Shown here in pieces: positions 18,973-50,108 of a stretch of 64,000 nucleotides of DNA. This DNA is from Alphaproteobacteria bacterium (GTDB lineage Bacteria; Pseudomonadota; Alphaproteobacteria; UBA828). The stretch is taken from positions 1-64,000 of the forward strand of contig CBDCRW010000002.1 of assembly GCA_965221125.1 (NCBI GenBank), written 5' to 3'. Under the pieces are notes generated by a model. It ran no database searches, was not told where the DNA came from, and worked only from the letters and a program-made list of their open reading frames with translations. The translations under genes were made by a program, and so were the position numbers. Position 1 is the stretch's first letter, and every line of letters starts with the position of its first letter.

Positions 18973-19607
18973 GATCGGGGTTCCTCAACGCTCGTCCGGC
19001 TTGATGCCGGCCCGTTTGCGCGTGCCGACGAGCCGTAGATTCGCACAAAAATGCGCGAGCGTGCAAGAGTTGCCGCAACCGCCTTCGTGTGCAGCGAGAA
19101 ACATCCTGTCGCGGAGACCGGGACCGGGCGCCTATAGCCGCATCGAGCGCCCTCTGCCGCCGCCACGGCCTTCGTGGCAAGAGGCGGTCTTGCCGGCCTC
19201 TTGCGTGCGCTCCTCGGCCTTGCGGCGCGCCAGCTCGGCCGTGACGGAGGCTGCGATGCCCTCCAGGCTGAACGACCCGCCGCGCGCCGGTCGCCCATGC
19301 CCTTCCAGCCCGGAGACCGCCCTGCTGCCAGGATCATCGGCCGCACCGTCAGGTACACCCCAGCCGCGATTTGCGCGATCGCCGCGCTGCCGACCCCCGC
19401 TCCGGGCCTGACCGCAGCCGTCCGACCGACCCGCCTCTTCCATCCTGAACTTGTCGACCCCGCCCCCTTCCGATCTGCTCCCCCGCCGCGCCCCGCCACG
19501 AATTTAGGTCGTCCAGCCGGCCTGGGGCAGTCCGGCGGGGCGGGGCGGGAGTGGTGCTTCGCGTCCGGCCTGCGCCGGTTCCATGCATTTACAGCACGGA
19601 GCCTGCC

Positions 19608-22600: not shown

Positions 22601-24134
22601 GGGCGAGCGCCTGGCGCTGCGCAGCCGGCCCGGTTCCGCCAACCTCGCAGAGACCGCCGCCTTTATGGACGGCGACAAGCGCATCCTGGTGTTCTCGATG
22701 GCGGGCGGGATCGGGCGCAGCTACCACGCCGATCTCGGCTGCGCCAACACCGAACGGCGCATCCACTACCTGCTGGAGCCGGGGTGGCGGGCCGACCAGG
22801 CGATCCAGGGGCTGGGCCGGACCCATCGCACGCACCAGGCGTCCGCCCCGCTCTTCCGCCCCGTCGCCACCGACGTGAAGGGGGAGAGGAGGTTCATCGC
22901 CACCATCGCGCGGCGTCTCGACAGTTTGGGCGCGATCACGCGGGGCCAGCGCGATTCCCAGACCGCCATGGGGGGCGACGACACCGCGCTGTTCAGGGCC
23001 AGCGACAACCTCGAGAGCCTCTACGCCAAGTCCGCGCTCAGGCAGTTCTACATCGCCCTCTGGCGCGGCCACATCGAGGGCTGGTCCCTCAAGGACTTCG
23101 AGGAGGCCACCGGGCTCAAGCTCACCTGGGAGGGCAGCCTCAAGGAGGACCTGCCGCCCATGCCCCAGTTCCTCAACCGCCTGCTGGCGCTCCCCATCGA
23201 CGAGCAGAACCAGCTCTTTGCGGCTCTTGAGACTCGGATCGAGGCCAACATCGAGATCGCGGTCGAGGCCGGCACCTTCGAGCGCGGCGTCGAGACCATC
23301 GTCGCCGACTCGCTCACCGTCGCCTCGCGCGAGTCCGTGTTCACCCACGAGCACTCGGGCGCCGAAACCGAGATCGTCGAGATCGCGCGCAAGGACCGGC
23401 TGGAGCCGCTCGCCGCCGACGCGGCGATCGAGCTCCACGCGGCCACGTCCAAGCACCCGCCGCTCCTCATCGTCAACGGCCAGTCGAAGCGGGCGGCGCT
23501 GGTCATGGACGCGCCCGCGCGCACGCTCGACGACGGCGACGTGCAGGAGCGCGCGCGCCTTGTCCGTCCCGCCACGCGCGAGACCGTCCCGCAAGCCGCC
23601 CTCGACGCCTCCAACTGGCGGAGGGCGCACGGCCACGAATGGCGCGCCCTCTGGGACGCCGAGATCGCGGGCCTGCCGTCCCACCGCGAATCCCGCTTCT
23701 GGCTGGTCGCGGGCTTGCTGCTTCCCATCTGGGACCGCCTCCCCGACGAGAGCATGCGGGTCCGCCGTCTGGTCTGCGACGACGGGGAGCACCTGATCGG
23801 CCGCGTCCTCGGCCCCGCCGAGCTCGGCGAGTTCCGCGCCGCCCTCGGTCTCGACGGCGGCCCCGGCCTCACCGCCGCCGAGGTCCACGACGAGATCATG
23901 GTGCGCGGCGCGTCCTTCCCGCTCGCCAACGGCTGGAGGCTGGCTCGGCGCCGCCTCATGGGGGCCAACCGCATCGAGATCGAGGGCCCCGCGGACGGCG
24001 ACACCGACGCGCTCAAGCGCATGGGCTGCATCGCCGAGATCGTCTCCTGGCGCACCCGCCTGTTCGCGCCCGACCGCGACACGCTCGAACGAGTCGTCGA
24101 ACGCTGGCCCATCGCGGCGCCGGAGGCGTCCTGA
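19608..24134 (+). CDS. Strawberry-notch-family NTPase/helicase fused to N-terminal methyltransferase-like domain
   Basis: QQFSTP, VLEPSAGTG and MNPPF; LGDGTGCGKGR, FDEAH, YVSATGA and IQGLGRTHR. Confidence 0.92.
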   Translation: MLDAHPAPDAPARPPAVPVSPIAEPAALQPASAPAALLAAARTLLPVLEAGRALDAATLRNAMTNAFGASDADGAWLWKDSYEAAEAALVLFLQRYGRAMRREAGAGPAGPAAMLRMLETLAALEPSQTRRSEQQLKYQQFSTPLPLAYASLQAAMIRPGDVVLEPSAGTGMLAVMAQLALGKDTNALHLNEIAAVRACLLTGLFPGCTVTRHNAETIRDRLSELRPTVVLMNPPFSASPGVDRIRHHVDLHHIRSAVSMLPPGGRLVAISSAHCVPGDAAWQDAFASLDPPAHAVFTAPIDGRAYARRGTTFDTRLTVLDRGGEKPARVYAGHPVRDAGHLLQALTRTVPARRPIEPVPGADLFGQAPAPSRRSRPTRARRTRTTPQETPPVEHDWGPVSELAYEAVPAGGGPAKGAQPSGPYARWRASSIHVPGATEHPTPLVQSGAMAAVPHPMPSYRPMLPERVVTEGLLSDAQLESAILAGQAHDRHLAAEYRIGAGWETVQRVDADGDDGSDESASASEDDGKTVDADELLSEPVRFRRGWMLGDGTGCGKGRQVAAIVLDQWLRGRRRALWLSQSDKLLEDARRDWCAIGGREEDVIPLGKVRQGADIPHAEGILFATYATLRSPARQGKPSRLDQIVAWLADGEDEDERHAYQGVIVFDEAHAMANAAGSKGSRGEVKPSQQGRAGLRLQNALPDARILYVSATGATTVPGLAYARRLGLWASGETPFETRTAFIAAMEAGGVAAMEVVARDLKALGLYQARALSYDGVEVDILEHPLTDEQRHIYDSYAGAFKIIHQNIQEALKATGIVDGESTLNKNAKSAALSAFEGAKQRFFGHLLTSMKCPSLIRAIEADLDEGRSAVVQLVSTGEALMERRIAEIPASEWDDLSIDLTPREYVLDFLEHAFPVQLQEPFEDDEGNLMSRPVFDADNNPVLCQEALARRDALIQKLGALPPVQSALDQIVHRFGHDAVAEITGRSRRVLRIEDARGERLALRSRPGSANLAETAAFMDGDKRILVFSMAGGIGRSYHADLGCANTERRIHYLLEPGWRADQAIQGLGRTHRTHQASAPLFRPVATDVKGERRFIATIARRLDSLGAITRGQRDSQTAMGGDDTALFRASDNLESLYAKSALRQFYIALWRGHIEGWSLKDFEEATGLKLTWEGSLKEDLPPMPQFLNRLLALPIDEQNQLFAALETRIEANIEIAVEAGTFERGVETIVADSLTVASRESVFTHEHSGAETEIVEIARKDRLEPLAADAAIELHAATSKHPPLLIVNGQSKRAALVMDAPARTLDDGDVQERARLVRPATRETVPQAALDASNWRRAHGHEWRALWDAEIAGLPSHRESRFWLVAGLLLPIWDRLPDESMRVRRLVCDDGEHLIGRVLGPAELGEFRAALGLDGGPGLTAAEVHDEIMVRGASFPLANGWRLARRRLMGANRIEIEGPADGDTDALKRMGCIAEIVSWRTRLFAPDRDTLERVVERWPIAAPEAS

Positions 24135-27725: not shown

Positions 27726-27908
27726 CCTCCGCCGCCGTTGTCGTCCGTGCCGGCGGCAAGGTCGTCGGCCACTCGGCAGGCGTCGGGGCGGACGGCGGAG
27801 GAGAGGTTGAGAGGAGCTTTGGAGGGGTGAACGGGAAGGGGACCGAGAAGGGTTCCCGACCCCTTCGTCAACCCATCGTCATCAACCAGGATGTGAAGGA
27901 GACGAACC

Positions 27909-28364
27909 ATGGCTTTCGGAGAGAACAGGGTGGTGCTGATCGGCCGCCTCGGCGACGACGTCGCCATCAACCAGCTGCAGAGCGGCGGGCGCGTTGCCAA
28001 CATGAGCATCGCGACCGACGAGTCCTACATCGACAAGCAGACCGGCGAGCGGGTCGACCGGACGGAGTGGCACCGCTGCGTCACCTTCCAGAACGGTCTG
28101 GTCGACATGCTGGAGAAGCACGCGAAGAAGGGCCGCCTGGTCTACGTCGCGGGCAAGCTCCAGACCCGGCGCTGGCGCAAGGACGGCGAGGACTCCGACC
28201 GGTTCTCGACCGAGGTCCTGCTGGTCCCCGGCGGGCGCGTGCAGTTCCTCGACAAGCCGGCCGGCGCCAACGGCAACGGCGCCCCGCCCGCCAACGGTGA
28301 GGCGGCCGCGACCGCCGAGACCGGCACCGCCGATCCCGTCGACGACGGAACGATCCCCTTCTAA
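27909..28364 (+). CDS. ssb: Single-stranded DNA-binding protein (resident copy)
   Basis: NRVVLIGRLG, TEWHR and VYVAGKLQTRRW; acidic tip DDGTIPF. Confidence 0.95.
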   Translation: MAFGENRVVLIGRLGDDVAINQLQSGGRVANMSIATDESYIDKQTGERVDRTEWHRCVTFQNGLVDMLEKHAKKGRLVYVAGKLQTRRWRKDGEDSDRFSTEVLLVPGGRVQFLDKPAGANGNGAPPANGEAAATAETGTADPVDDGTIPF

Positions 28365-28385
28365 GGGGAAGTTAGGTAGAAATGT

Positions 28386-28426
28386 AAAGCTCGCAGGGGT
28401 AACACCTTGCGGGCTTTCATTTTTTG
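28386..28426 (+). terminator. Intrinsic terminator inside the element's left end, serving ssb
   Basis: AAAGCTCGCAGG...CCTTGCGGGCTTT hairpin followed by a T run. Confidence 0.75.
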
Positions 28427-28439
28427 TTGAATTTCATGA

Positions 28440-28489
28440 TTGACACGTTTGGAGTCGCAATTCTAGGTAAGCCGGAACAAGGCAAGAGC
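28440..28489 (+). promoter_or_regulatory. Putative sigma70 promoter with imperfect LexA box upstream of the recombinase operon
   Basis: TTGACA at 28440-28445; GAAC-AAGGCAA-GAGC at 28475-28489. Confidence 0.4.
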
Positions 28490-28500
28490 GTAAACTTTCG

Positions 28501-29745
28501 ATGCCCGAGAGCGTCCGCAGAATCAGACTTCCCGGCGGCGAGACGCTCCCCGCCCTGGTCGAGCCCGGCTCGGCCCCCGCGCCCGAGCCGATACGGTATG
28601 CGGTCTCCATTCTCAGAAACGCCGGCCGCGCCGAGAACACGATCGAGGCGCACATGCGCGCGATCGCGGCGGCCCGGGTGTGGGCGCACTCGAACGGGCT
28701 CTCCCTCGAAGCACGCATGGCCACGGGCGCCGGTCTGGAGCTGCGGGAGGTCGAGAGTCTTTCCCATGCGCTGAAGACCGCCCGGGTTCCGGATCGGACC
28801 GAGCGTCCCCACCAAGCCAATGTCCTGCCGCTTTCCAGATCGGGCAAGGAGCTTCATCGGCACCTTCCCCACGACTGCGATGAGATGCTGGACCCCCAGA
28901 CCGGAGCCAACCGTGTGCGGTCCGTCGCTGCCTATCTCGACTGGCTTGCAAGCCACAGCCGTGCCGCCGGATCGCAGCAGCTCCTTCGCGACACCGTCAA
29001 GGCTCTGACCGCCCGGGCGAAGGTGGGCGCGCGTCAACCGTCCGAGCCCAGGAAGGGCCTGTCGCCGGAACAGCGCGACCGGCTGTTCGCCGTCATCGAT
29101 CCGTCCTCGCCGGAAAACCCGTTCCGGAGCGAGGCGGTTCGCTATCGCAACCTTGCCGTTGTTGCCTGCCTTGACGAGACCGGCATGCGCAGGGGCGAGC
29201 TTTGCGGCCTGAAGATCCCGGACATCGACTTCAGGAAACTGACGATCTCGATCCATCGGCGCCCTCCGGACCCCCGGGACCCTCGTCGGCAGAAGCCGAA
29301 GACCAAGTCCGGCGCACGGCCCGTGCCGATCAGGCCGGAGCTGGCGGACATCCTCTTCGCCTACCTGTCGGATTGGCGCCGGACCGAACCCGGCGCCCGG
29401 ATGCACGCCTATGTCTTCGTGTCCCATGCAGGAATCAGGCCGGGAGCGCCGTTGACCCCGAGAAGCGTGGGCAACGTCTTCGCTGCGCTCGAAAGCGTTC
29501 TCGGCTTCCGTCTCCATCCTCACCTGTTGCGCCACACCTGGAACGACAGGTTCTCGGCCGCGATCGACGGCAGGGCGGAGCGTGGCGATCGCACCCCCGA
29601 GGCGAGCGAGGAGCGCATCCGCAACTTCCTGATGGGATGGAGTCCGGATTCGAAGATGGCGGCGGTCTACACGCACCGTCACGTCGAACGGGCGGCCGAG
29701 GCCGCCCTGAGAGGCATGCACCAGGGATTGTTCGAGGGTGAGTAG
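28501..29745 (+). CDS. Tyrosine recombinase 1 (Tn554 TnpA-like)
   Basis: TGMRRGE, KTK, HLLRH, MGW and AVY. Confidence 0.9.
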   Translation: MPESVRRIRLPGGETLPALVEPGSAPAPEPIRYAVSILRNAGRAENTIEAHMRAIAAARVWAHSNGLSLEARMATGAGLELREVESLSHALKTARVPDRTERPHQANVLPLSRSGKELHRHLPHDCDEMLDPQTGANRVRSVAAYLDWLASHSRAAGSQQLLRDTVKALTARAKVGARQPSEPRKGLSPEQRDRLFAVIDPSSPENPFRSEAVRYRNLAVVACLDETGMRRGELCGLKIPDIDFRKLTISIHRRPPDPRDPRRQKPKTKSGARPVPIRPELADILFAYLSDWRRTEPGARMHAYVFVSHAGIRPGAPLTPRSVGNVFAALESVLGFRLHPHLLRHTWNDRFSAAIDGRAERGDRTPEASEERIRNFLMGWSPDSKMAAVYTHRHVERAAEAALRGMHQGLFEGE

Positions 29746-31225
29746 TCCGGGCGGATTGCAGCCTGCCGGCGCTCCGCGAGAGCGCGGCATCCATGCGGGA
29801 TTCGATTCCGGCGGCGACGTCTGGAAGATCGTGCTGGAGAAGGGCGTGACCCGCATCTCCTTCAAGCCGATACGAGATCATTGGGGCGCCGGGCACGCCG
29901 ACAACGTCAAGCAGGCTGCCCTTGCCTACATGGAAGATCGCTCCCCCGACACCGTGTTGGGGGGCGTCCAGGCCCTCGCAAGAATGGCGCGGGATGTCCC
30001 GGTCGGCGCCACCATCTCTGCGGCGGCTCTCATGGACTACCGGTCGCTGCTCGCTCGCGAGCAACTGCACTATCTGGGCCACGTCGCGGCGTTCCTGAAG
30101 TTCTGGGTCGCACGCGGCTACGCCGGGGTCGACCGCGACGTGCTGCAGTTCTTCAGCAGCATCAAGATACCCGGGAACGTCAAGGGCGCCGCCGTCCGCA
30201 CGCACCACCCCACGAAGGGTCCCTTCACCGATGTGGAGTTGCAGAGCATCACCCTTGCGGCACGCGAGGCGTATGGCGAGGGCCGCGTGAGCAGGCAGGA
30301 CTTCGGCATTCTTCTCACGCTGACCGCAACGGGGGCCCGGCCCGGCCAGCTGTCGATGCTGACTTGTGGCGATCTGGTTCCGCCTGCACCGGGATCGGCC
30401 GCATCTCGCCTCCTGGTGCCGTCTCTCAAGAAGAGGACGCCGAAGCGCCTCACGCGCGAGCGGGTCATCCCTGGCGAGCTTGCCGTTCTGCTTAGGGAAC
30501 TCGTCGAGGAGCGATCCCGCGACGAGCGCTTCCGGGGCATTCCGGTCGACCGGCGTCCGATCTTTGCCGTCGAGGCGACCGCCTTCGCATCGCTCGCGGA
30601 GGCACACATCGGCAGGGGCGGTGCCGGCCGCGCTCTGAGGCGCATCCAGAGCGCGCTCGGCCTTCGGTCGGCGCGCACTGCCGCTCCGATCAACCTGGCG
30701 CCCCGGCGGTTCCGGAGCACTCTCGGGACGCGTGCTGCCGATGTGGGTCACCCTCCTGTTCTGATCGCTCACCTTCTCGATCACACCGACCTCCAGCACG
30801 TCGGCGTGTATGTGGAGTCGCGCGGCTCGATCCAGGACCGCATGGACGCCGCCCTTCATGGCCGGGCGGAGCCGCTGGCCGGGCTGTTCAGGGGCACGAT
30901 CGTTGCGGGCGAGGTCGAATCCGGCGCCGGGGAAGCGCCGTCGCGTCGCGTTGCGTCCGCCGCCGGCGGAGGCGTGGGAACCTGCGCGGGCCCGCGCAGC
31001 TGTGTCCGTCTGGCGCCGCTTGCATGCTACACCTGCGCCGCGTTCCGTCCCTGGCGTGACGCGCCTCACGAGGATCTGCTGCAGTCCCTGGTCGAGGAGC
31101 GCAGGACGCTTCTCGCGGACGGGATCTCCCCGCAGGTGGCCGCCGCCAACGACGCAACCATCATGGCCGTCGCGGAGGTCGCCGATCGTTGCCGCGCGAT
31201 GCGGACGGGGGTGGCTCATGGCTGA
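29738..31225 (+). CDS. Tyrosine recombinase 2 with C-terminal Cys cluster
   Basis: TGARPGQ, RRFRST, LLDH and GVY; GTC...SC...ACYTC tail; overlaps the upstream stop. Confidence 0.88.
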   Translation: MSSPGGLQPAGAPRERGIHAGFDSGGDVWKIVLEKGVTRISFKPIRDHWGAGHADNVKQAALAYMEDRSPDTVLGGVQALARMARDVPVGATISAAALMDYRSLLAREQLHYLGHVAAFLKFWVARGYAGVDRDVLQFFSSIKIPGNVKGAAVRTHHPTKGPFTDVELQSITLAAREAYGEGRVSRQDFGILLTLTATGARPGQLSMLTCGDLVPPAPGSAASRLLVPSLKKRTPKRLTRERVIPGELAVLLRELVEERSRDERFRGIPVDRRPIFAVEATAFASLAEAHIGRGGAGRALRRIQSALGLRSARTAAPINLAPRRFRSTLGTRAADVGHPPVLIAHLLDHTDLQHVGVYVESRGSIQDRMDAALHGRAEPLAGLFRGTIVAGEVESGAGEAPSRRVASAAGGGVGTCAGPRSCVRLAPLACYTCAAFRPWRDAPHEDLLQSLVEERRTLLADGISPQVAAANDATIMAVAEVADRCRAMRTGVAHG

Positions 31226-33272
31226 GCTCGCGCTCTTCCGGCCGGCGGAGGCGCTCGATGCCGAAGCGAGGCTCGCCGAGTTCATCCGTCATGCGCGCGA
31301 CGACCTCACGGTGTTCGGCGCCGAGCTCGACTGGGACGCGCCGAGATGGGAGCTGCGCGGAGTTGCCACTGTGTCGGGCCGCAGCAAGAGCGTGCTTCGC
31401 CTCAACTGGGGTCATCCCCTGAAGAAAGCGCCAAGGTCGATCGAGCACTACGCGCCGTTCGGCGCCCGCAACGCCGACTTCTTCAAGGCGTACCTGCGCT
31501 ACAGGTATGGTCTTGCCCCACAGATGGCCCCTCAGCTGATGCTCTCGGCGATGCGGCATCTCGACAAGACTCTCGCCGAAGCTGGCAAATCGATTGCCGA
31601 CGCGCGGCCCGACGACTTCAACGCCGCCGCCGCGGCCTCTCGCTCTGCTTACAGCCGCCACACTGCGTATCGCGTCGGCCTGCAGCTTCAAGCGATCGCC
31701 GGCTTTCTCGACCATCACGGCCTCGTCGCGCGGCCTCTCGTCTGGACCTGCCCCATCAGGCGGCCGACGAGCTTCGATCGCATCGGCGTCGAACGCGAGC
31801 GGGCTCGGGCCCGGAAACTTCCCTCGGAACGCGCGCTTGCCGCGCTCGGAGAGGCATACCGCCGCGCCGAGCATCCAATGGACGTGATTGCCGCTTCCGC
31901 ATACGCCCTTCTCCTGGTGACGCACAGCCGCATCTCCGAGCTGCACCGGCTCGACGCCTACGATTGCGAAGTGGAGGCCGTCGAGAGCGGCAAGGACCGC
32001 TACGGCCTGCGCTGGTATCCGTCGAAGGGCGGCGAGCCCGAGACGCGCTGGATCCCGAGCGCGTTCGTGCCGCTGGCGAGGGACGCGCTGAAGCGCATTC
32101 GAGACGTCACCGAGCCCGCCCGCGCGCTTGCGCGCAGGTACATGGCCGGCGAGGACATCCTCCCGGGCGACGCCCCGGACGATCCTCTCGCCCGCGAGGG
32201 CTACATCAGCATGAGGAGTCTCGGAACGGCCGCCGATCCGAGGACCGTGCTTGTCGCGCTGCGCAGAAACGGATTCGATGTTCGCGCGGACCACGCAACA
32301 CAGCTGGGCGTCAAGCTCGCAATGAACGCCAAGCTTTATCTCCGCGCGCCGATCGAAGAAGGCTTTCGGGCGGAGCTCCCGCAAGGCTTCCCGCTGGCCG
32401 ATCCCAGATCCGGCCTCGGATACGACCGCGCGCTGCTCGTACGCACCGCTGACATGGCCCGGCAATCGTGCACTCTCTTCTGGCGCCTTTCCTGCGTCTC
32501 GACCAGCGAGATCAAGAACACCATGAACGGGAGAGACTGCACGAGCGATCAAAAGGCTGGATTGTTCGGCCGTCTCGGGCTGGTGGACGACGATGGCGAG
32601 ACCGTCCGCATCACGCCTCACCAGCTGCGCCACTACATGACCACGCTGGCGAACGAGGGGAACCTGTCGCAGCTCGACATCGCGAGATGGGCGGGCCGCA
32701 AGGACATCCGGCACAACGCGTACTACGACCACGAAACCGCCGATTCCCTCGTCTCCAAGGCGCGCTCTCTCGGCGGGGACATCTTCGGCAGCCCGATGAC
32801 GGCAACCCCTCAGCGGCCGGTGACCCCGCGGCAGCTGATCGAGGGCAGTCTCGCCGGGGTGCATCTGACGCGTTACGGCGCCTGCCTGCACGACTTTGCG
32901 GCGTCGCCCTGCCCGATGTACCGGGACTGCCTGAACTGCGTCGAGCACGCCTGCGTCAAGGGAGACGAGCGCGCCGAGCGCGCCCTGCGCGACCGCCTAG
33001 CCGTCATCCAGAAAGCTGTCGCGTCCGCGGAAGAGGCCGCAGCTATCGGCGAAGGCAACTCGGAGATCTGGCTCTCCCGCAAGAGGACCGAGCTTGCGCG
33101 CCTGCGCGAGCTCGTCGCCCTGATCGACGACGCGGCGATCGCGCCGGGCGCCGTCCTGAGGCTCGACGGCGCGGCACGCTATGCGATCGGCGGCGACGGG
33201 GCCGGTTCGGCGAAAGCCCTGCCCGGCCCCGGCCCGGCTCCCGATTCCTTACCCCGGCTACGGAAACCGTGA
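31218..33272 (+). CDS. Tyrosine recombinase 3 (large) with C-terminal Cys cluster
   Basis: HSRISE, HQLRH, WAGR and AYYDH; GACLHD...PCP...CLNC.EHAC; ATG 31218 overlaps the previous stop. Confidence 0.88.
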   Translation: MAELALFRPAEALDAEARLAEFIRHARDDLTVFGAELDWDAPRWELRGVATVSGRSKSVLRLNWGHPLKKAPRSIEHYAPFGARNADFFKAYLRYRYGLAPQMAPQLMLSAMRHLDKTLAEAGKSIADARPDDFNAAAAASRSAYSRHTAYRVGLQLQAIAGFLDHHGLVARPLVWTCPIRRPTSFDRIGVERERARARKLPSERALAALGEAYRRAEHPMDVIAASAYALLLVTHSRISELHRLDAYDCEVEAVESGKDRYGLRWYPSKGGEPETRWIPSAFVPLARDALKRIRDVTEPARALARRYMAGEDILPGDAPDDPLAREGYISMRSLGTAADPRTVLVALRRNGFDVRADHATQLGVKLAMNAKLYLRAPIEEGFRAELPQGFPLADPRSGLGYDRALLVRTADMARQSCTLFWRLSCVSTSEIKNTMNGRDCTSDQKAGLFGRLGLVDDDGETVRITPHQLRHYMTTLANEGNLSQLDIARWAGRKDIRHNAYYDHETADSLVSKARSLGGDIFGSPMTATPQRPVTPRQLIEGSLAGVHLTRYGACLHDFAASPCPMYRDCLNCVEHACVKGDERAERALRDRLAVIQKAVASAEEAAAIGEGNSEIWLSRKRTELARLRELVALIDDAAIAPGAVLRLDGAARYAIGGDGAGSAKALPGPGPAPDSLPRLRKP

Positions 33273-33273
33273 C

Positions 33274-33693
33274 ATGGCCCGGCACCTCACCGAGACCAAC
33301 GTCGAAACGCTCGCCAGGACCATCGGCACGCTCGAGGTGGCCACGTGGGGCGCGGTCGTGAGGCTGGCGCGGCGACGGCTCGGCCACGCCTACTCGCGCC
33401 AGGCGCTGTCCAGGCATGAACGGATAAGGACGGCGCTCGCGGCCCGCAGGGAGCAACTCAGGGGCAGCGGGGCGGGGCGGCGGCCGAGACCGAAGACCGA
33501 CACCGAAGCGGCCCTCCTCGAGCGCATCGATTCCCTGGAAGCGGACCTCTGCCGGCTTCGCGCCGAGAACGAGGCGATGATGACCCGGTTCGCCGTCTGG
33601 GCCTACAACACGCACGTTCTCGGCATTCCCGACCATCGGCTGGACGCTCCGCTTCAGCCGGTCGATCGAGAATATAGCGAGCATGACGCATGA
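33274..33693 (+). CDS. Small HTH/coiled-coil accessory protein (TnpC-like role inferred)
   Basis: TW...YSRQAL.RHERI followed by a coiled coil; directly follows recombinase 3. Confidence 0.7.
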   Translation: MARHLTETNVETLARTIGTLEVATWGAVVRLARRRLGHAYSRQALSRHERIRTALAARREQLRGSGAGRRPRPKTDTEAALLERIDSLEADLCRLRAENEAMMTRFAVWAYNTHVLGIPDHRLDAPLQPVDREYSEHDA

Positions 33694-34229
33694 GCAGGGG
33701 CAGCGGCGCGGAACGCGGCCGGCAGGCGGTGCTGCGCCTGCGCGAAGAGATCGACGCGCGCGAGGCGGCCGGCGAGACCTTGCCCATGAACGGCCGGGCT
33801 CTCCATCTGGCGAAGATCTGCCAGCTGGTCGGGGTTGGCCGGTCGACGGTGACGCAGAACCCGTCCTTCCGCGCCATGCTCAAGGACTACGCCGGCCGGA
33901 AGGGCGTGGCCTTCTCCGCCAGAGGATCGCCGCCCTCCGTGCACGACCGCCAGACCACGGGAGCTGTCGAGGCGCCGGGCGACGCCGGCGGGGAGGCCAT
34001 GGTGCCGGCCTCCCGCCTGCGCGAGGAACAGCGGCGCAGCGCGGCCGCCGAGCGCCGCGTCAGCGAGCTGGTCGCCAGGAACGCGGCGCTCATCGCCCGC
34101 CTGAGGCGCTATGAGGCTACCGATCAAGCGCTGATCGCCGCCGGTCGCCGCTACAGGCCCAGGCCGCCGGAGAAAGAGAACTCCGGCCCCGGACAGAGCC
34201 GCCTTCAGCTCGACGAGACGTCCGAATGA
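33690..34229 (+). CDS. Small HTH/coiled-coil protein
   Basis: LAKICQLVGVGRSTVTQNP HTH-like segment; C-terminal coiled coil; ATGA overlaps on both sides. Confidence 0.7.
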   Translation: MSRGSGAERGRQAVLRLREEIDAREAAGETLPMNGRALHLAKICQLVGVGRSTVTQNPSFRAMLKDYAGRKGVAFSARGSPPSVHDRQTTGAVEAPGDAGGEAMVPASRLREEQRRSAAAERRVSELVARNAALIARLRRYEATDQALIAAGRRYRPRPPEKENSGPGQSRLQLDETSE

Positions 34230-36205
34230 GCCGGCCGGGCGCAGCCGCCCGTGCCGCCGTCGAGGCCCCGATGCCGCGAAGGCCCGGCGCGCTCGCGGCG
34301 TACCTTGCCGAGGACCGGGACTTCCGCGGCATCGGCCCCGCGAAGGCCGCTGCCCTGGCAGCCGCATTCGGCGACGGCCTGCGTAACGCGCTCGACCGGA
34401 AACATCCCGAGGTCACCGCCATCCTCGGCGAGGAAACCGCCACCAACGCGTTCGCGGCCTACGAGTTGAAGAGCCCCGAGATCGAGCTTCTCGACTGGCT
34501 GGAAAGCCGGGGGGTCGCCCCCGCTGTCGGGACGCGTACCGCGATCAGGATCGCCCGCTGCTGGGGCCATGACGGCATCGACGCCCTGAAGGACAATCCC
34601 TACCTCCTCGCGAGCTTCCTGCCCTGGCCTGCAACCGACAGGGTCTGCCGCGCTCTCGGCGTCGCGCCCGACGATCCCCGCCGCGCCGTCGCCGCCGTCG
34701 AGGCCACCCTCTACCGCCGCCTCGACCGGAACCATACATGGACGTCCCGCGCCTCGGCAGAGGCCGGGGCCGCGAAGCTGCTCACCGGCGTAGCGGCTCC
34801 GGACGGCAGCCCTGCCGGACCCTGGGCGGTCGAGAGCGCCGTCGAAGCCGGCGGCGCCGAGCCCTTCGAGGACGGCGTTCAGCCCATGGGCGCGGCCGCC
34901 ATGGAGGCCTTCCTTGCCGAAGAGCTCGCACGCTTCGCCGCCGAAGTTCCGGCGTCCGACCTGGCCTTGCCAGCTGTTGCCGGCGAGGAGATCGGGCACG
35001 CCGTTGACGAGTATGAACGCCGCCGGCCGCACCGCCTCACGGGCCCGCAGAAAGCCGCCATCGCGGGCGCCTTCCGGCACCGGCTGTCGGTGCTGGGCGG
35101 CTATGCCGGCTCCGGCAAGACCACGTCCCTGCGCGGCATCTGCGAGCTGGCGGAACGCTTCGGCCGCGACACCGTGCTCATCGCGCTCTCGGGCCGCGCG
35201 GCGCAGCGCATGGCCCAATCGGCGGGGCGCCCCGCGATGACGATCGCCCGCTTCCTCAAGGAGACCTCCGGCGGCGCGGGTGCGCGCTTGCATGCAGGCA
35301 ACATCGTCATCGTCGACGAGGCGTCCATGGTCGACCTTCCCCTGCTCTGGCAGGTGGTGAGACGCATCGGGGACGCCTCCCTCGTTCTCGTCGGCGATCC
35401 CGCGCAGCTTCCGCCCATCGGCTTCGGCCTGACCTTCCACGTGCTCATCGAACATCCCGCCATCCCGAAGACCGTCCTCGACCGCGTGATGCGTCAATCG
35501 GCCGAGACCGGGATACCGGTCGTGGCCGAGGCCATTCGCAACGGCCGCCGCCCGGAGCTCGGCCCCTTCCGCGGCCTGGCGCCGGGGGTGACGTTCATCG
35601 ACGCCGCCCCGGAGGAGGCGTTCGACGTCATCTTCGATGCCGGCGCGCGGCTCGCCAAGAACGGATTGCGCCGGGGCGACGCTCAGATCGTCGCGCCGGT
35701 CAACGCAGGACCGGCGGGCATCCTCGCCATCAACCGCCGGTTCCACGAACTGCGGATGCAGGGCAGCGCCCATACCCCCCGTCTCGTTCCCGGCCGTGCC
35801 GACATCGCCGAAGGCGATCCCGTCATCTGGACCCGCAACGACTACGAGCGCGACCTCATGAACGGCTCCACCGGCCGTATCGTCGAAGCGCACCGGGACC
35901 ATGCGACGGCGGTCATCGACAGCCAGGAGCACCGGCTGGGCGCCGCCGACGCCACCAACATCGAGCTCGCCTACGCGATCTCCGTGCACAAGGCGCAGGG
36001 CTCGCAGTGGCCCCTGGTGATCGTGCCCGTCTACCGGTCCAGGATCCTCGACAGAACGCTGATCTACACCGCGGCCACGCGGGCCTCGGAGCAGGTCGTC
36101 TTCGTCGGAGACCGAAACGTCTTCGACGCTGCCGTCGCAACGGCGCCAAGGAATCTGAAGCGCGACATCACCCTGGCGTCGCGCTTGAGATCGATCGGGC
36201 AATGA
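34226..36205 (+). CDS. RecD2-like SF1B helicase
   Basis: HhH RGIGPAKA; GYAGSGKTT, VDEASM, GDPAQLPPIG, MRQ and AYAISVHKAQGSQW. Confidence 0.9.
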   Translation: MSRPGAAARAAVEAPMPRRPGALAAYLAEDRDFRGIGPAKAAALAAAFGDGLRNALDRKHPEVTAILGEETATNAFAAYELKSPEIELLDWLESRGVAPAVGTRTAIRIARCWGHDGIDALKDNPYLLASFLPWPATDRVCRALGVAPDDPRRAVAAVEATLYRRLDRNHTWTSRASAEAGAAKLLTGVAAPDGSPAGPWAVESAVEAGGAEPFEDGVQPMGAAAMEAFLAEELARFAAEVPASDLALPAVAGEEIGHAVDEYERRRPHRLTGPQKAAIAGAFRHRLSVLGGYAGSGKTTSLRGICELAERFGRDTVLIALSGRAAQRMAQSAGRPAMTIARFLKETSGGAGARLHAGNIVIVDEASMVDLPLLWQVVRRIGDASLVLVGDPAQLPPIGFGLTFHVLIEHPAIPKTVLDRVMRQSAETGIPVVAEAIRNGRRPELGPFRGLAPGVTFIDAAPEEAFDVIFDAGARLAKNGLRRGDAQIVAPVNAGPAGILAINRRFHELRMQGSAHTPRLVPGRADIAEGDPVIWTRNDYERDLMNGSTGRIVEAHRDHATAVIDSQEHRLGAADATNIELAYAISVHKAQGSQWPLVIVPVYRSRILDRTLIYTAATRASEQVVFVGDRNVFDAAVATAPRNLKRDITLASRLRSIGQ

Positions 36206-36509
36206 CCTCGTTCAGCGACACCCGCCTGCCGGCTGGCCCCATCGCGCCCTGATCGCCCCCATCCCGCGCCCCCCTGATCAAAACTGCGCCCTGGCGGCTT
36301 CCAATGCCGGCGCACGCCCGGCCGCAGCCGGCCTCTCGTCGCGTGCGATCCGTGAAGCCGTCGGCTACCTGTCGGCCACCGGGGCGCCGGGCCTGGCAGA
36401 GGTGGAGAGTGGCTGGAGGAGGATGAACGGAGAAGGGCGGGGAGAGAGATCCCCCGGCCCGCTTCGTTCCGCAACCATCGTCAGAAACTCGGATGAACAG
36501 GAGACGATC

Positions 36510-36929
36510 ATGAGCTTCGGGATGAACAGGGCTGAGCTCATCGGACGCTTGGGCGCCGATGCGACCATCACCAATCTCACGTCCGGCGGGCGCGTCGCCA
36601 ATATGAGCGTGGCGACCGACGAGGGGTACATCGACAAGACCGGCGAGCGCGTCGATCGCGTGGAATGGCACAAGGCGGTGACCTTCCAGGACGGGCTCAT
36701 CGGCATGCTCGAAAAGCACGCGAAGAAGGGTCGCCTGGTCTACGTCAGCGGCAAGCTCCAGACGCGCAGGTGGCGGAAGGAGGGCGAGGACAGCGACCGC
36801 TTCTCCACCGAGATCCTGCTGGTGCCCGGTTCGCGGATCCAGTTCCTCGAGCGCACCAACGGCACCGCCGCCACCCAGGACGACCGCCGGCCGGCAGAAG
36901 CCGGCCATGCCTCCGATTCGCCGTTCTAG
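36510..36929 (+). CDS. ssb: Single-stranded DNA-binding protein (element-borne copy)
   Basis: Close paralogue of 27909-28364; RBS AGGAG; ends DSPF. Confidence 0.93.
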   Translation: MSFGMNRAELIGRLGADATITNLTSGGRVANMSVATDEGYIDKTGERVDRVEWHKAVTFQDGLIGMLEKHAKKGRLVYVSGKLQTRRWRKEGEDSDRFSTEILLVPGSRIQFLERTNGTAATQDDRRPAEAGHASDSPF

Positions 36930-37019
36930 GAGCATGATCGCCGTCTACTCCCGATCGGGCCGGCGCTTCGCGCGTCGGCCCGTCCTTCCTGGCCTCGCAT
37001 CGGGTGCCGACGACAAAAG

Positions 37020-37068
37020 TGTAAACAATGTCGCCCATATCGGGCCAATCTCGGCGGCATTGTTTACA
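37020..37068. repeat. 16-bp inverted repeat near the element's right end
   Basis: TGTAAACAATGTCGCC ... GGCGGCATTGTTTACA (15/16). Confidence 0.75.
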
Positions 37069-37192
37069 AGAGATCCGCACGGAAGGGCACCGGAACACCA
37101 AAAGATCGTTGTGAATCAAACCACTCACTCAAACGTTACACGGTCCAACTTCCCATAACCGTTCTAGGCGGGTCCCTCCCTCCCGCTGACCC

Positions 37193-37236
37193 TGGCCGGT
37201 GCCGCGTCCCTCCCTGCGCGGCATCGGCCATTTTTT
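37193..37236 (+). terminator. Intrinsic terminator, probably the original ssb terminator displaced by the insertion
   Basis: TGGCCGGTGCCGCG-loop-CGCGGCATCGGCCA-TTTTTT about 25 bp after the orphan CCG TTC TAG. Confidence 0.8.
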
Positions 37237-37439
37237 CTGCAGCCCATTCAGAGCCGTCTCCGGCCGGACGGCACGGCTCGCGCTTCGCGCGTCGCCCGCC
37301 GTCCCGGCACCCCCAGGAGCCGAGAGGGGCCGGGACCCTGGCGCTCCCCCGGCAGCCGCGAGCGAGGTGCTCCCATGCTCTCCGATCCCGTCCATCGTCC
37401 CGGCCGCGCCAGTGCCGTCATGCGCGCCGGAGGCGCGCC

Positions 37440-38453
37440 ATGAACGCCACCGCCATCGCCGCAGCCCTCGGCGCGCGCGCCGAGGAGGTCTGCCGCCGCT
37501 ACCTCCCCCACGGCCGCAAGAACGGCCGCTACTGGACCGCCGGCGACATTCGCGGCGCCAAGGGGCGCTCGCTCTTCGTCCGCCTCTCACCGCCCGGCGT
37601 CCCCGGCAAGTGGACCGATGCCGCCGAGGGAACGCACGGCGACCTGCTCGACCTCATCCGCATCGCCTCCGGCGCGGGCTCCCTCCGCGCCGCCCTCGCC
37701 GAGGCGCGCGCCTTCCTCTCCCTGCCGCCCGCGGCCGCCGCTGCCGCCTCCGACACCTACGACCGCACGGAGGCGGCGCGCCGCCTGTGGCAGCGCTGCC
37801 GCGCCATCGACGGCACTCATGCCGAGGCCTATCTCCACGCCCGGGCGATCCACCGCTGCCGCTTCCCCGCGCTCCGCTTCCACCCCGCGCTCTTCTACCG
37901 CGACGGCGGCGCCATGCGCCGCCTGCCGGCGCTGGTCGCCGCCGTCACCGGCGCCGCAGGGGAACACCCTGGTCACGGCTCCATCACCGGCGTCCACCGC
38001 ACCTGGCTCGATCCCTTGCGGCCGGCCAAGGCGCCCGTGGCGCGTCCGCGCAAGGCGCTCGGCCGCGTCCACGGACTGGCCGTTCGCTTCGGCGGCTCGG
38101 GGCCCGCCACGCTGCTGGTGGGCGAGGGCATCGAGACGGTGCTCTCGCTGGTCACCGCCATGCCGGACACCGTCGCCGCCGCCGCGCTGTCTGCCGGCAG
38201 TCTCGGCGCGTTCGCGCCTCCTGCCGGCACCGCCCGGCTCGTCATCGCCCGCGACAACGACCCCGAAGGCGAGCGGGCGGCCGAACGCCTTGCCCGCCGC
38301 TGTGCGCGGGCCGGCGTCCCCGCCCATGTCCTCGTTCCCGAAGGCGCAGACTTCAACGACGACCTGCTCGCGCTCGGCTCCGCCGCGCTACGCGCGCGCC
38401 TCGCGCCCCTCTTCCGCTTCGCGGGAGAGAGAGGAGAGCAGGAGTCGGTGTGA
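37440..38453 (+). CDS. Primase-like TOPRIM domain protein
   Basis: GKWTDAAEG.HGDLLDLI, GVHRTWL, VGEGIET, ARDND and DFND. Confidence 0.88.
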   Translation: MNATAIAAALGARAEEVCRRYLPHGRKNGRYWTAGDIRGAKGRSLFVRLSPPGVPGKWTDAAEGTHGDLLDLIRIASGAGSLRAALAEARAFLSLPPAAAAAASDTYDRTEAARRLWQRCRAIDGTHAEAYLHARAIHRCRFPALRFHPALFYRDGGAMRRLPALVAAVTGAAGEHPGHGSITGVHRTWLDPLRPAKAPVARPRKALGRVHGLAVRFGGSGPATLLVGEGIETVLSLVTAMPDTVAAAALSAGSLGAFAPPAGTARLVIARDNDPEGERAAERLARRCARAGVPAHVLVPEGADFNDDLLALGSAALRARLAPLFRFAGERGEQESV

Positions 38454-38505
38454 ACAGGGCGAAGGAAGAGAGAACCCGCCCGCCAGGCACGAAGGGAGCA
38501 CCCGG

Positions 38506-41840: not shown

Positions 41841-42005
41841 AGTTGCCGATAAGTATGGCCAATGCTACAGTCGACGACGCATGGATGTCACGAGTCCATT
41901 GGGTAACGGTCTGAAGCACATGAGCACTCCCTCAATCGCTCTTGGCGCTGCGGCGCTGCCTGCAAGTACGGCCGCCCCGTATCCTCCCAGCAGGGCCACC
42001 GCACC

Positions 42006-50063: not shown

Positions 50064-50108
50064 GGTGCGATCCTCGTTCAGGGACTCCCTGGCCCCGGGA
50101 TCGTCACG

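What the first reader, a model, noticed from the sequence alone, without database searches (positions are those of the whole stretch)
28356..37168. Three-recombinase element that targets the conserved Pro-Phe-stop tip of ssb
Seen: the left junction is ATC CCC TTC|TAAGGGGAAGTT, where the ssb stop codon is the first three bases of the element arm. The right junction is AACTTCCCATAA|CCG TTC TAG G, an orphan second Pro-Phe-stop followed by a strong terminator. The arms match 10/12 as inverted repeats, and the two 6-bp cores differ only at the Pro wobble position. Excision would give a junction AACTTCCCATAA-CCsTTC-TAAGGGGAAGTT (12-6-12, a dif/lox-like layout) and restore ssb to its own terminator. 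Established: the SSB C-terminal PF tip is highly conserved; Tn554-type elements target a conserved gene (radC) and leave non-identical 6-7 bp cores; RIT elements carry recombinase trios. Inference: this family uses plasmid/ICE ssb 3' ends as a harmless landing site and so rides conjugative leading regions. I do not know of a described ssb-tip-targeting element with this gene set.
Basis: partly seen in the sequence, partly recalled or inferred. Interest (0 to 1): 0.9.

Follow-up and report, generated by a model that had tools for sequence, protein, structure and literature searches.

The report
Three-integrase island at ssb gene tips
An 8.8-kb mobile island with three integrase genes sits exactly on the last two codons of a conjugative-element ssb gene; the element is real and active-looking, but it belongs to the already described GInt family, which is known to prefer this site.

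Summary
The same 8,795 bases occur at 100% identity in four full copies, one IS-interrupted copy and one contig-end copy in this genome. Two related species carry the empty allele, with ssb joined directly to the right flank.

The element encodes three tyrosine recombinases of 414, 495 and 684 aa and a 139-aa fourth protein. It ends in a 230-bp, lower-GC 3' segment.

In all 6 homologous loci from three sister species, an ssb tip (IPF-stop) abuts the left end. Of 71 testable loci of the middle recombinase family, drawn from many phyla, 67 do the same.

The novelty claim fails. Bardaji et al. 2017 defined GInts (ginABCD, imperfect 10-17 nt repeats, 6-nt staggered cuts) and reported 6 of 11 analysed GInts at the end of ssb.

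This is therefore a new member of a known kind. Modest extras: an alphaproteobacterial lineage, about five copies per genome, conserved helicase and ssb cargo, and a hint of a Tn554/SE-like donor footprint at attR.

The parts
27909..28364 (+). Target gene ssb1 (151 aa, ends DDGTIPF). Its stop codon TAA (28362-28364) is supplied by the element.
   Evidence: Pfam SSB 1.3e-25. TAA is constant at all own-genome copies while the upstream flanks differ.
28356..28361 (+). attL core CCCTTC (the Pro-Phe codons). It is target-derived.
   Evidence: The empty alleles in G011 and G006 also read CCC TTC.
28362..28373 (+). Left arm TAAGGGGAAGTT, an inverted repeat of the right arm (10 of 12).
   Evidence: The arms co-vary in the G019 and G009 elements.
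28383..28427 (+). Subterminal TGTAAAG motif, followed by a terminator-like hairpin and T-run that now ends the ssb1 transcript.
   Evidence: Hairpin at 28386-28417. TGTAAA occurs only 5 times on both strands of the 64-kb window, 3 of them in the element ends. A GTAAA-type motif about 20 nt after the stop is visible at most of the left junctions printed (not counted).
28501..29745 (+). intA (ginA-like), a 414-aa tyrosine recombinase with R230, H341-x-x-R344, W380 and Y390.
   Evidence: Pfam PF00589 1.9e-14. Alignment A3.
29738..31225 (+). intB (ginB-like), 495 aa, with R201, K231, R326, H349 and Y358, plus a Cys-rich C-terminus.
   Evidence: NCBIfam NF041502 355 bits, above its 350-bit cut-off. 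Alignment A1.
31218..33272 (+). intC (ginC-like), a large 684-aa recombinase with R238, K270, H468-x-x-R471, W491 and Y503, plus a Cys-rich C-terminus.
   Evidence: Frame set by GC3. Translation. Pfam PF00589 weak, 0.0012, over profile positions 122-169 of 172. Motifs align to XerA 4a8e. Invariant in A2 and in two more distant families.
33274..33693 (+). orfD (ginD-like), the 139-aa fourth core gene.
   Evidence: 35-36% identical (E 6e-23 and 1e-19) to the small ORF that follows the third integrase in the pPAD8 and pETN48 elements. No Pfam family at E below 0.1.
33690..34229 (+). Cargo ORF of 179 aa, with a weak VPA1267-family match.
   Evidence: NCBIfam NF040697 32 bits, below its 90-bit cut-off. 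76-86% identical in the sister-species elements.
34226..36205 (+). Cargo RecD2-like SF1B helicase, 659 aa.
   Evidence: Pfam AAA_30 1.2e-39 and UvrD_C_2. TIGR01448 338 bits, below its 500-bit cut-off. 82-87% identical in relatives.
36510..36929 (+). Cargo ssb2, 139 aa, ending SDSPF-stop (CCG TTC TAG). No insertion at its tip in this copy.
   Evidence: Translation. Pfam SSB 2.3e-21. 76% identical to ssb1.
36930..37158 (+). Lower-GC 3' end (GC 0.57 against 0.68 for the element). It holds an inverted TGTAAACAATG/CATTGTTTACA pair (37020-37068) and the right arm AACTTCCCATAA (37147-37158).
37159..37167 (+). attR core CCGTTC followed by the native ssb stop TAG (the orphan Pro-Phe-stop).
   Evidence: The stop differs between copies, so it belongs to each target.
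37193..37240 (+). Native ssb terminator, now separated from ssb1 by the element.
   Evidence: It follows ssb directly in the empty alleles L111 and L112.

Best explanation
This is a GInt-type integrative element (genomic island with three integrases; Tn6488/Tn6571-type, a relative of Tn554). It is about 8.8 kb long.

Structure:
- Four overlapping or abutting core genes: intA, intB, intC and orfD.
- Three cargo genes: a 179-aa ORF, a RecD2-like helicase and an ssb paralogue.
- A 230-bp 3' end.

Proposed mechanism (inferred): the element circularises to give the junction AACTTCCCATAA-CCNTTC-TAAGGGGAAGTT. The recombinases then exchange strands between this site and the 9-10 bases CCNTTYTAR(G) that encode the Pro-Phe-stop tip of ssb genes carried by conjugative elements.

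The SSB protein is unchanged by the insertion (shown). The element supplies the stop codon and a terminator, and the native stop and terminator are left as an orphan at the right end.

The site is probably shared by distant relatives because the SSB tip is under strong protein-level constraint (inference).

Shown here: the element's limits, its copies, the empty alleles, the site preference across relatives, and the conserved catalytic-type residues. Inferred only: circular intermediate, cleavage positions and the role of each protein.
For: Copies and limits
- There are four full 100%-identical copies, one interrupted copy and one contig-end copy. All share the same limits but have different flanks.
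- The element contig has about 5 times the flank depth.

Empty alleles
- G011 (L111) and G006 (L112) read ...ATC CCC TTC TAG CGGG..., followed by the same terminator.

Site preference
- 6 of 6 loci in G004, G009 and G019 carry the same 7-gene order behind an IPF-stop ssb tip.
- 67 of 71 testable intB-family loci do the same. 80 loci were fetched, and 9 with less than 2000 bp of upstream flank were dropped.
- ssb lies immediately upstream in pPAD8, pKOX-86d, pETN48 and E. coli plasmid P3.

Conserved parts
- The four-gene core is conserved between alpha- and gammaproteobacterial elements.
- The arms co-vary between lineages.

Context
- The insertion lies in a conjugative element: a TrwC relaxase at 41907..46106, a Toprim/DUF7146 gene at 37440..38453 and a Strawberry-notch-like helicase at 19449..24134.

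Literature
- The GInt definition and the ssb-end preference are in PMC5385486.
Against: - No circle junction or excision product of this copy was seen. Only Logan contigs were available, and contigs drop rare forms.
- Sequence homology to the type GInt proteins (Pht-PAI, P. stutzeri DSM 4166) could not be tested, because those sequences and Table S3 were not available.
- Idola et al. 2023 found no ginC-ginD blocks in Alphaproteobacteria and describe GinC as lacking the catalytic motif. The third protein here keeps R, HxxR, W and Y.
- One own-genome copy (C5:57122) has no ssb on its left.
- 2 of 71 surveyed loci (L066, L107) show no ssb tip.
- Three ICE-type ssb tips in the same genome are unoccupied. 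The same holds for ssb2 in the window's copy. The 9-10 bp alone may therefore not suffice, or insertion may be rare.
Confidence: 0.85

Rival explanations
1. Same element, different mechanism. It may move by a strand-biased, copy-out route like the SEs and, as proposed, Tn554. In that route the 6 bases next to attL go into the circle and are deposited at the new attR as a donor footprint, the donor copy stays in place, and the copy number therefore rises. The cargo helicase and SSB might serve the replicating intermediate.
For: - The window's attL core CCC equals the native core in both empty alleles, while attR carries a foreign CCG.
- In G019 the second copy has attL CCGTTT but attR CCCTTC, which is the core of the first copy.
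- Every own-genome attR wobble (A, G, A, G) is found as the attL wobble of another copy.
- There are about five identical copies per genome.
- The SE rule and the statement that strand bias in GInts remains elusive are in PMC10214605.
- Bardaji et al. could not detect empty sites for several GInts.
Against: - Only one or two junction pairs are informative.
- The own-genome attL wobbles include all four bases, so the genealogy match is uninformative.
- A classical double exchange with a heteroduplex gives the same pattern in half of the daughters.
- Empty alleles do exist in relatives.
- No reads of intermediates are available.
- A role for the cargo is pure inference.
Confidence: 0.3
2. [quoted passage not shown]
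For: The gene order resembles that of SEs: an ordinary recombinase, a middle protein, a large recombinase and a small protein. The short imperfect terminal inverted repeats and the 6-bp spacer also match.
Against: - SE synteny blocks were found only in Gammaproteobacteria (abstract).
- The middle protein here keeps R, K, R, H and Y, unlike Tfp as described.
- ssb occurs nowhere in the main text of the SE paper (0 occurrences), whereas the ssb end is the published GInt habit.
Confidence: 0.05
3. It is a RIT (recombinase in trio) element.
For: There are three adjacent, overlapping tyrosine recombinase genes.
Against: - A fourth conserved core gene and 3.2 kb of cargo are present.
- The terminal inverted repeats are only about 12 bp long.
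- The site specificity is strict.
- The sizes of 414, 495 and 684 aa are unequal.
- The RIT features used for this comparison are recalled, not taken from a call.
Confidence: 0.02
4. It is not an autonomous mobile element but a fixed module of the conjugative element, multiplied by duplication of the whole ICE.
For: Two copies on contig C7 lie in a larger inverted duplication with identical flanks.
Against: - Three further copies have unrelated flanks with sharp limits at the same bases.
- Orthologous ssb-Toprim modules occur without the element.
Confidence: 0.02

Closest known systems
[quoted passage not shown] 2017, Sci Rep 7:46254; called a Tn6571-family transposon in Hochhauser et al. 2023, PMC10121019, passages seen)
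   Same: - A four-gene operon at the left end: three integrase-type genes and a small protein.
- Cargo, followed by a 0.2-0.4 kb poorly conserved 3' end.
- Imperfect direct repeats of about 10 nt formed from attI and attB.
- A 6-nt core with mismatches between attL and attR.
- Insertion at the end of ssb without changing the product.
   Different: - The host is alphaproteobacterial, judged from the record titles of the closest loci.
- There are about five identical copies in one genome.
- The cargo is a conserved helicase plus an ssb paralogue, not resistance, virulence or defence genes.
- The third protein keeps all catalytic-type residues.
- Homology to the type GInt proteins was not tested.
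Tn554 (tnpA, tnpB, tnpC)
   Same: [quoted passage not shown]
- A single conserved target.
- No target duplication, and non-identical 6-bp cores with a donor footprint (as summarised in PMC10214605).
- ginABCD transposons are filed in the Tn554 family by Jing et al. 2022.
   Different: - Tn554 has two recombinases, not three.
- Its target is att554, not ssb.
- Its hosts are Firmicutes.
- No sequence comparison was made here.
[quoted passage not shown] 2023, Mob DNA 14:7)
   Same: - A four-gene core at the left end.
- 13-19 bp imperfect terminal inverted repeats.
- A 6-bp spacer.
- The pattern of attL core from the target and attR core from the donor.
   Different: - The SE middle protein (Tfp) is described as lacking the catalytic motif.
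- SEs are restricted to Gammaproteobacteria.
- SEs have other target sites.
Integrative mobilizable elements that target genes of conjugative elements (Guedon et al. 2017, PMC5704250; search listing only; content recalled)
   Same: They parasitise a conserved gene of a conjugative element and so travel with it.
   Different: Those elements use one integrase or a serine or DDE recombinase, together with oriT or relaxase functions. No relaxase or oriT was found in this element.

Membership tests
GInt | ginABCD-like operon at the 5' end: three integrase-type genes plus a small fourth gene, co-oriented and overlapping | tested here: met
   intA 28501..29745, intB 29738..31225, intC 31218..33272 and orfD 33274..33693.
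GInt | Tripartite structure: core operon, cargo, and a short (0.2-0.4 kb) AT-richer 3' end | tested here: met
   Cargo at 33690..36929. The 3' end at 36930..37158 has GC 0.57, against 0.68 for the element.
GInt | Flanked by imperfect direct repeats of 10-17 nt that are attI/attB hybrids | tested here: met
   CCCTTCTAAGG at attL and CCGTTCTAGG at attR. The same pattern holds at the other copies.
GInt | Site-specific integration, preferentially at the end of ssb without altering the product | tested here: met
GInt | Excision as a circular molecule, with all four genes required | not testable with these tools
   Only Logan contigs were served. No circle junction was seen among them.
GInt | Sequence homology to GinA-D of the type islands (Pht-PAI, P. 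stutzeri DSM 4166) | not tested
Indirect support: 30-34% identity to trios behind ssb in Pseudomonas, Klebsiella and E. coli plasmids.
GInt | GinC lacks part of the catalytic motif: the first Arg (Bardaji et al.) or the RHRY motif and Tyr (Idola et al.) | tested here: not met
   R238, H468, R471, W491 and Y503 are invariant in 5 of 5 aligned sequences and are present in two more distant families. The two papers disagree with each other, so the weight of this feature is unclear.
Tn554 | tnpA-tnpB-tnpC, with only two recombinases | tested here: not met
   Three recombinase genes are present.
SE | intA-tfp-intB-srap, with a middle protein that lacks RHRY | tested here: not met
   The middle protein keeps R201, K231, R326, H349 and Y358. 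Homology to Tfp and Srap was not tested.
RIT | A recombinase trio alone, between long terminal inverted repeats (feature recalled, not from a call) | tested here: not met
   The arms are 12 bp long, and a fourth core gene and cargo are present.

The most novel reading that the evidence does not exclude
The element may represent a distinct alphaproteobacterial GInt lineage with three features:
- All three recombinases are catalytically competent.
- It multiplies within a genome by a strand-biased copy-out route. attL keeps the target core, and attR receives the donor's attL core.
- Its cargo (RecD2-like helicase, SSB with a degenerate tip, 179-aa protein) is unusually conserved because it is part of the transposition or replication machinery of the circular intermediate rather than passenger DNA.

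If so, this would be the first natural-copy evidence for strand bias in a GInt and the first accessory replication module in this class.
Probability: 0.2. Interest if true: 0.55.

Novelty: new member of a known kind. Interest (0 to 1): 0.33.

Why it matters
The tools confirm this in detail.

The kind of element and its liking for the end of ssb were published in 2017, so the main claim is not new. What this case adds is modest:
- Scale. 67 of 71 testable loci of this recombinase family, drawn from many phyla, sit on a Pro-Phe-stop ssb tip. The 2017 paper called the shared target of distant GInts remarkable. The likely reason (inference) is that the recognition sequence is the coding sequence of the conserved SSB C-terminal tip.
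- Vehicle. The ssb genes used are those of plasmids and ICEs. Such islands therefore ride conjugative elements, and in the E. coli plasmid pETN48 one carries an Avs4 defence gene.
- A test bed. A genome with about five identical copies and several empty sites is a natural system for testing whether GInts transpose with the strand bias shown for SEs.

Tried and rejected
- Wrong-frame ORFs. The first Pfam, NCBIfam and PHROG scans included 31346-32452, 32468-33361 and 36168-36935(-). These gave nothing. GC3 analysis showed the real genes are intC in the frame of 30810..33272 and ssb2 on the + strand.
- Megablast of 27000-38500 against PLSDB gave no match.
- A regex for the window's own left arm in the relatives' loci failed, because the arms differ between lineages.
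- NF041502 in 14 control genomes gave no hit above the cut-off, so this was uninformative.
- Circle junction or excision in reads. All 23 runs found were Logan contigs. Laying X18, X19, X20 and X1 gave no back-joint at the element ends. One low-depth X20 contig joins 28318 to 37168 with 11 other letters. This is probably a strain or paralogue without the element, not proof of excision. The joints from 36823 and 36601 to about 28267 and 28009 are ssb paralogue chimeras.
- Empty orthologues for the C4:651k site were not found. Those for the C7 site (L146, L141) are uninformative for the footprint question, because attL and attR are identical there.
- The idea that the 230-bp 3' end is a miniature element inserted at the ssb2 tip was rejected. 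Its first bases match the right arm in only 5 of 12 positions as an inverted repeat (hand count output).
- The idea that ssb2 is a portable landing site was weakened. In the G019 and G009 elements the cargo ssb ends LTF-stop (ACG TTC), and in L035 it ends LPS-stop.
- PADLOC gave only generic RecD-type matches for the helicase and nothing for the other four proteins scanned (o179, ssb2, orfD, intC).
- The supplementary tables of Bardaji et al. (S1-S4), which list the ssb-inserted GInts, and the additional files of Idola et al. are closed and may bear on the membership test.

Full report
**What is in the sequence**

The left junction reads ...ACG ATC CCC TTC TAA GGGGAAGTT. The right junction reads AACTTCCCATAA CCGTTC TAG GCGGG.

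The ORF 27909..28364 is an SSB (Pfam 1.3e-25) that ends in DDGTIPF. A terminator-like hairpin with 15 pairs and a T-run follows the orphan Pro-Phe-stop at 37193-37230. A second such hairpin lies just inside the left end at 28386-28417.

**Gene content**

Codon-position GC corrects the naive ORF list. The genes are:
- intA, 28501..29745, 414 aa (PF00589 1.9e-14).
- intB, 29738..31225, 495 aa (NCBIfam NF041502, 355 bits against a cut-off of 350).
- intC, 31218..33272, 684 aa. It is read in the frame of ORF 30810..33272. It has a weak PF00589 match over the catalytic end.
- orfD, 33274..33693, 139 aa.
- A 179-aa ORF, 33690..34229.
- A RecD2-like helicase, 34226..36205.
It ends in SDSPF-stop.

A 230-bp segment of lower GC (0.57) closes the element.

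**It is a discrete repeated element with exactly these limits**

- The stretch 28365-37159 occurs at 100% identity at C7:816-9610, C5:57122-65916 and C4:642536-651330, as well as in the window.
- One further copy on C7 is interrupted by a 2802-bp IS21-like insertion.
- A sixth copy is cut by the end of contig C4.
- The two C7 copies and the C4 contig-end copy share one left flank. The two C7 copies lie in an inverted duplication. I therefore count at least four independent sites.
- In Logan contigs of runs X18-X20 the element is a single contig, 28359-37160. Its depth is 97.6, 101.7 and 50.7, against flanks of about 19, 17-20 and 11.5, which is roughly five copies.
- On the left, all copies read CCN TTC TAA followed by the element. 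On the right they read CCA TTC TAA, CCG TTC TAG, CCA TTC TGA and CCG TTC TAG.
- The stop on the left therefore belongs to the element, and the stop on the right belongs to each target.

**Empty alleles**

A search of the 21 genomes of the genus with the right flank gave loci in which the ssb1 orthologue runs straight into that flank. The orthologue is 88% identical to ssb1 and the flank 87% identical.
- G011 (L111) reads ...CCT ATC CCC TTC TAG CGGGTCC...
- G006 (L112) reads ...GAT ATC CCC TTC TAG CGGGCTCC...
- Both are followed by the same terminator.
- G014 and G004 have more distant versions of the same arrangement.

The own genome also keeps three unoccupied ICE-type ssb tips, at C4:32k, C4:982k and C5:722k.

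**Relatives**

intB homologues were found in 4 of 60 other related genomes searched. Larger stretches were fetched from three of them. All 6 loci (G004, three in G009, two in G019) show the same order of intA, intB, intC, orfD, the 179-aa ORF and the helicase, most with the cargo ssb. All 6 sit directly behind an ssb that ends in IPF-stop.

Within a lineage the stop after Phe is constant: TGA in G009, TAA in G019 and TAA here.

The two G019 copies are identical over 9257 bases. They end ...GGGCCTATAA CCCTTC TAG and ...TATAA CCCTTC TGA.

The arms differ between lineages but stay complementary. Here they are GGGGAAGTT and AACTTCCC. In G019 they are AAGGCCCTTT and AAAGGGCC. This is covariation and argues for function.

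**Wider survey**

A scan of one genome per species with an intB alignment kept 80 loci. They carry titles from Alpha-, Beta- and Gammaproteobacteria, Desulfobacteria, Acidobacteria, Sulfurimonas, Solirubrobacterales and Myxococcales.
- Nine loci with less than 2000 bp upstream were dropped.
- Of the remaining 71, 67 have an ORF that matches an SSB profile and ends in Pro-Phe-stop 1.2-2.0 kb upstream of intB.
- Of the other four, L034 has an IPF-stop tip without a profile hit. L064 lies in tandem behind the element of L063. L066 and L107 show no ssb tip.
- The cores seen are CCGTTC 35, CCGTTT 10, CCCTTC 9 and five other variants, 13 in all.
- A GTAAA-type motif about 20 nt after the stop is visible at most of the left junctions printed; I did not count it.
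- In the window, TGTAAA or its complement occurs five times in 64 kb, and three of these are in the element ends.

In PLSDB, 64 records match intB. Of five loci inspected, four have ssb immediately upstream: P. aeruginosa pPAD8, K. oxytoca IncC pKOX-86d, E. coli IncF pETN48 and E. coli plasmid P3. The fifth, pCF39S, lies among resistance genes.

**The proteins**

Each alignment below has five sequences: the window, G019 and three plasmids, at about 30% identity between the alpha- and gammaproteobacterial members.
- intA: R230, H341-x-x-R344, W380 and Y390 are invariant.
- intB: R201, K231, R326, H349 and Y358 are invariant.
- intC: R238, K270, H468-x-x-R471, W491 and Y503 are invariant.
- The intC motifs line up with the catalytic residues of the archaeal XerA structure 4a8e, although the match is weak (E 0.61).
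- The intC motifs persist in the third proteins of two more distant families that are annotated as hypothetical.
- intB and intC both carry a conserved Cys-rich C-terminal stretch.
- orfD is 35-36% identical to the small ORF after the third integrase in pPAD8 and pETN48 (E 6e-23 and 1e-19).

**What it is**

These features are the published definition of a GInt. Bardaji et al. 2017 (PMC5385486; Results, Discussion and figure legends read) describe the following:
- A ginABCD operon of three integrases and a small TnpC-like protein, all needed for excision and integration.
- Cargo, followed by a 0.2-0.4 kb 3' end.
- Imperfect direct repeats of 10-17 nt.
- Six-nt staggered cuts with heteroduplex repair.
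[quoted passage not shown] The authors call this remarkable, given less than 35% identity between the elements.

Later papers add context.
- Hochhauser et al. 2023 (passages) call GInts Tn6571-family transposons that carry defence systems in E. coli.
- Jing et al. 2022 (passages) file the ginABCD transposons under the Tn554 family.
- Searches for GInt with ssb found only the 2017 paper. A search for 'three tyrosine recombinases' with ssb found none.

**What does not fit neatly**

- Idola et al. 2023 (abstract and sections 3 and 12 read, plus passages) found ginC-ginD blocks in Gamma- and Betaproteobacteria but none in Alphaproteobacteria. The closest loci here carry Alphaproteobacteria titles.
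- The same paper describes GinC as lacking the catalytic motif. Bardaji et al. say only that the first arginine is missing. Here the third protein keeps all of these residues.
- I could not obtain the type sequences, so direct homology to the type GInt remains untested.
- One own-genome copy (C5:57122) has no ssb on its left. Its left flank is a 20-codon ORF ending in FPF-stop, 22 bp from a 1.65-kb IS that has six copies in the genome. Its right flank is a normal post-ssb region. This fits either a secondary-site event or a later rearrangement.

**Mechanism**

Shown: the switch between target and element sequence lies between the Phe codon and the stop at both ends.

At the window site the attL core (CCC) equals the native core of both empty alleles, and the attR core (CCG) does not. 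In G019 the second copy has attL CCGTTT and attR CCCTTC, which is the core of the first copy.

This is the pattern described for SEs and Tn554: the target core ends up next to attL and the donor spacer next to attR. It would suit a copy-out route and the high copy number.

The evidence is thin, however. There are only one or two informative cases. A classical heteroduplex gives the same outcome half of the time. The own-genome attL wobbles include all four bases, so the apparent genealogy proves nothing. I rate this mechanism at about 0.3.

**Context and cargo**

The insertion lies in a conjugative element:
- A Strawberry-notch-like helicase at 19449..24134.
- ssb1.
- A Toprim/DUF7146 gene at 37440..38453.
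- A TrwC relaxase at 41907..46106.

Such ssb-Toprim modules are very numerous in this genus, with up to 20 matches in one genome.

Across the sister-species elements the cargo is better conserved than the recombination genes:
- 179-aa ORF 76-86% and helicase 82-87% identical.
- intA 62-72%, intB 66-73%, intC 69-74% and orfD 53-67% identical.

The cargo SSB has a degenerate tip: SPF here, LTF in G019 and G009, and LPS in L035. I have no evidence for what the cargo does.

**Verdict**

The element is a new member of the known GInt kind, not a new class. The alphaproteobacterial lineage, the multi-copy state, the conserved helicase-ssb cargo and the footprint hint are modest additions.

Noticed in passing
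G000:C5:55454-57121 (left of the copy at C5:57122-65916): This copy has no ssb on its left. Its left flank is a 20-codon ORF ending in FPF-stop, 22 bp from a 1646-bp IS that has at least six copies in the genome. A paralogous gene at C5:718k carries the same IS at the same place. The right flank is a normal post-ssb region. This could be a secondary-site insertion, an adjacent deletion or recombination between copies.
   Followed up: partly
G000:C7:37017-39818: A 2802-bp IS21-like element, with a second identical copy at C3:6374-9175, interrupts one copy of the island. The break is at about 36961-36973 in window coordinates, in the hairpin after ssb2.
   Followed up: partly
window 36510-36929; L025:11329-11757; L023; L035:4549-5103: The cargo ssb lacks the acidic DDDIPF tip. 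It ends SDSPF here, ELTF in the G019 and G009 elements, and DLPS in a smaller relative where ssb directly follows the core genes. This could reflect avoidance of self-targeting or an SSB that does not bind host partners.
   Followed up: partly
L021-L026 against window 28501-36929: Between sister-species elements the cargo is more conserved than the recombinases. The 179-aa ORF is 76-86% and the helicase 82-87% identical, against 53-74% for the recombination genes.
   Followed up: no
L063/L064 (Tepidimonas fonticaldi, one contig) and L066 (Pandoraea horticolens): These look like tandem arrays. The left flank of the second element looks like the right end of another element rather than an ssb (for example ...TATACAA CCGTTC TAG in L064).
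   Followed up: partly
L151 (E. coli plasmid P3, NZ_OX030731.1) and L029 (pETN48): A second, distant trio family (28% identity in intB, third protein annotated as hypothetical) also sits directly behind an IncF ssb. The pETN48 element is followed by an Avs4 anti-phage gene and has an IS3-family insertion between its second and third integrase genes.
   Followed up: no
window 47935-50108 (- strand): A Mu/Tn-type transposase (rve, Mu-transpos_C) lies next to a TniB-like AAA ATPase. This is another transposon in the same conjugative element.
   Followed up: no
window 37160-38460: The ssb-Toprim/DUF7146 module is present in all 21 genomes of the genus, with up to 20 matches in one genome. This is an unusually high load of related conjugative-element modules.
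   Followed up: no
run X1 laid on window 28362-30297: A contig from another study starts exactly at the element's first base (28362) and differs by 91 letters in 1936. Variants of the element that are about 95% identical therefore occur in other public samples.
   Followed up: no
L113 (G018) and L119 (G005), upstream of the homologous right flank: In place of ssb, the sequence before the GGCGGGTCCC terminator ends in a hairpin similar to the island's left-end hairpin. A different element may be inserted at the same place.
   Followed up: no
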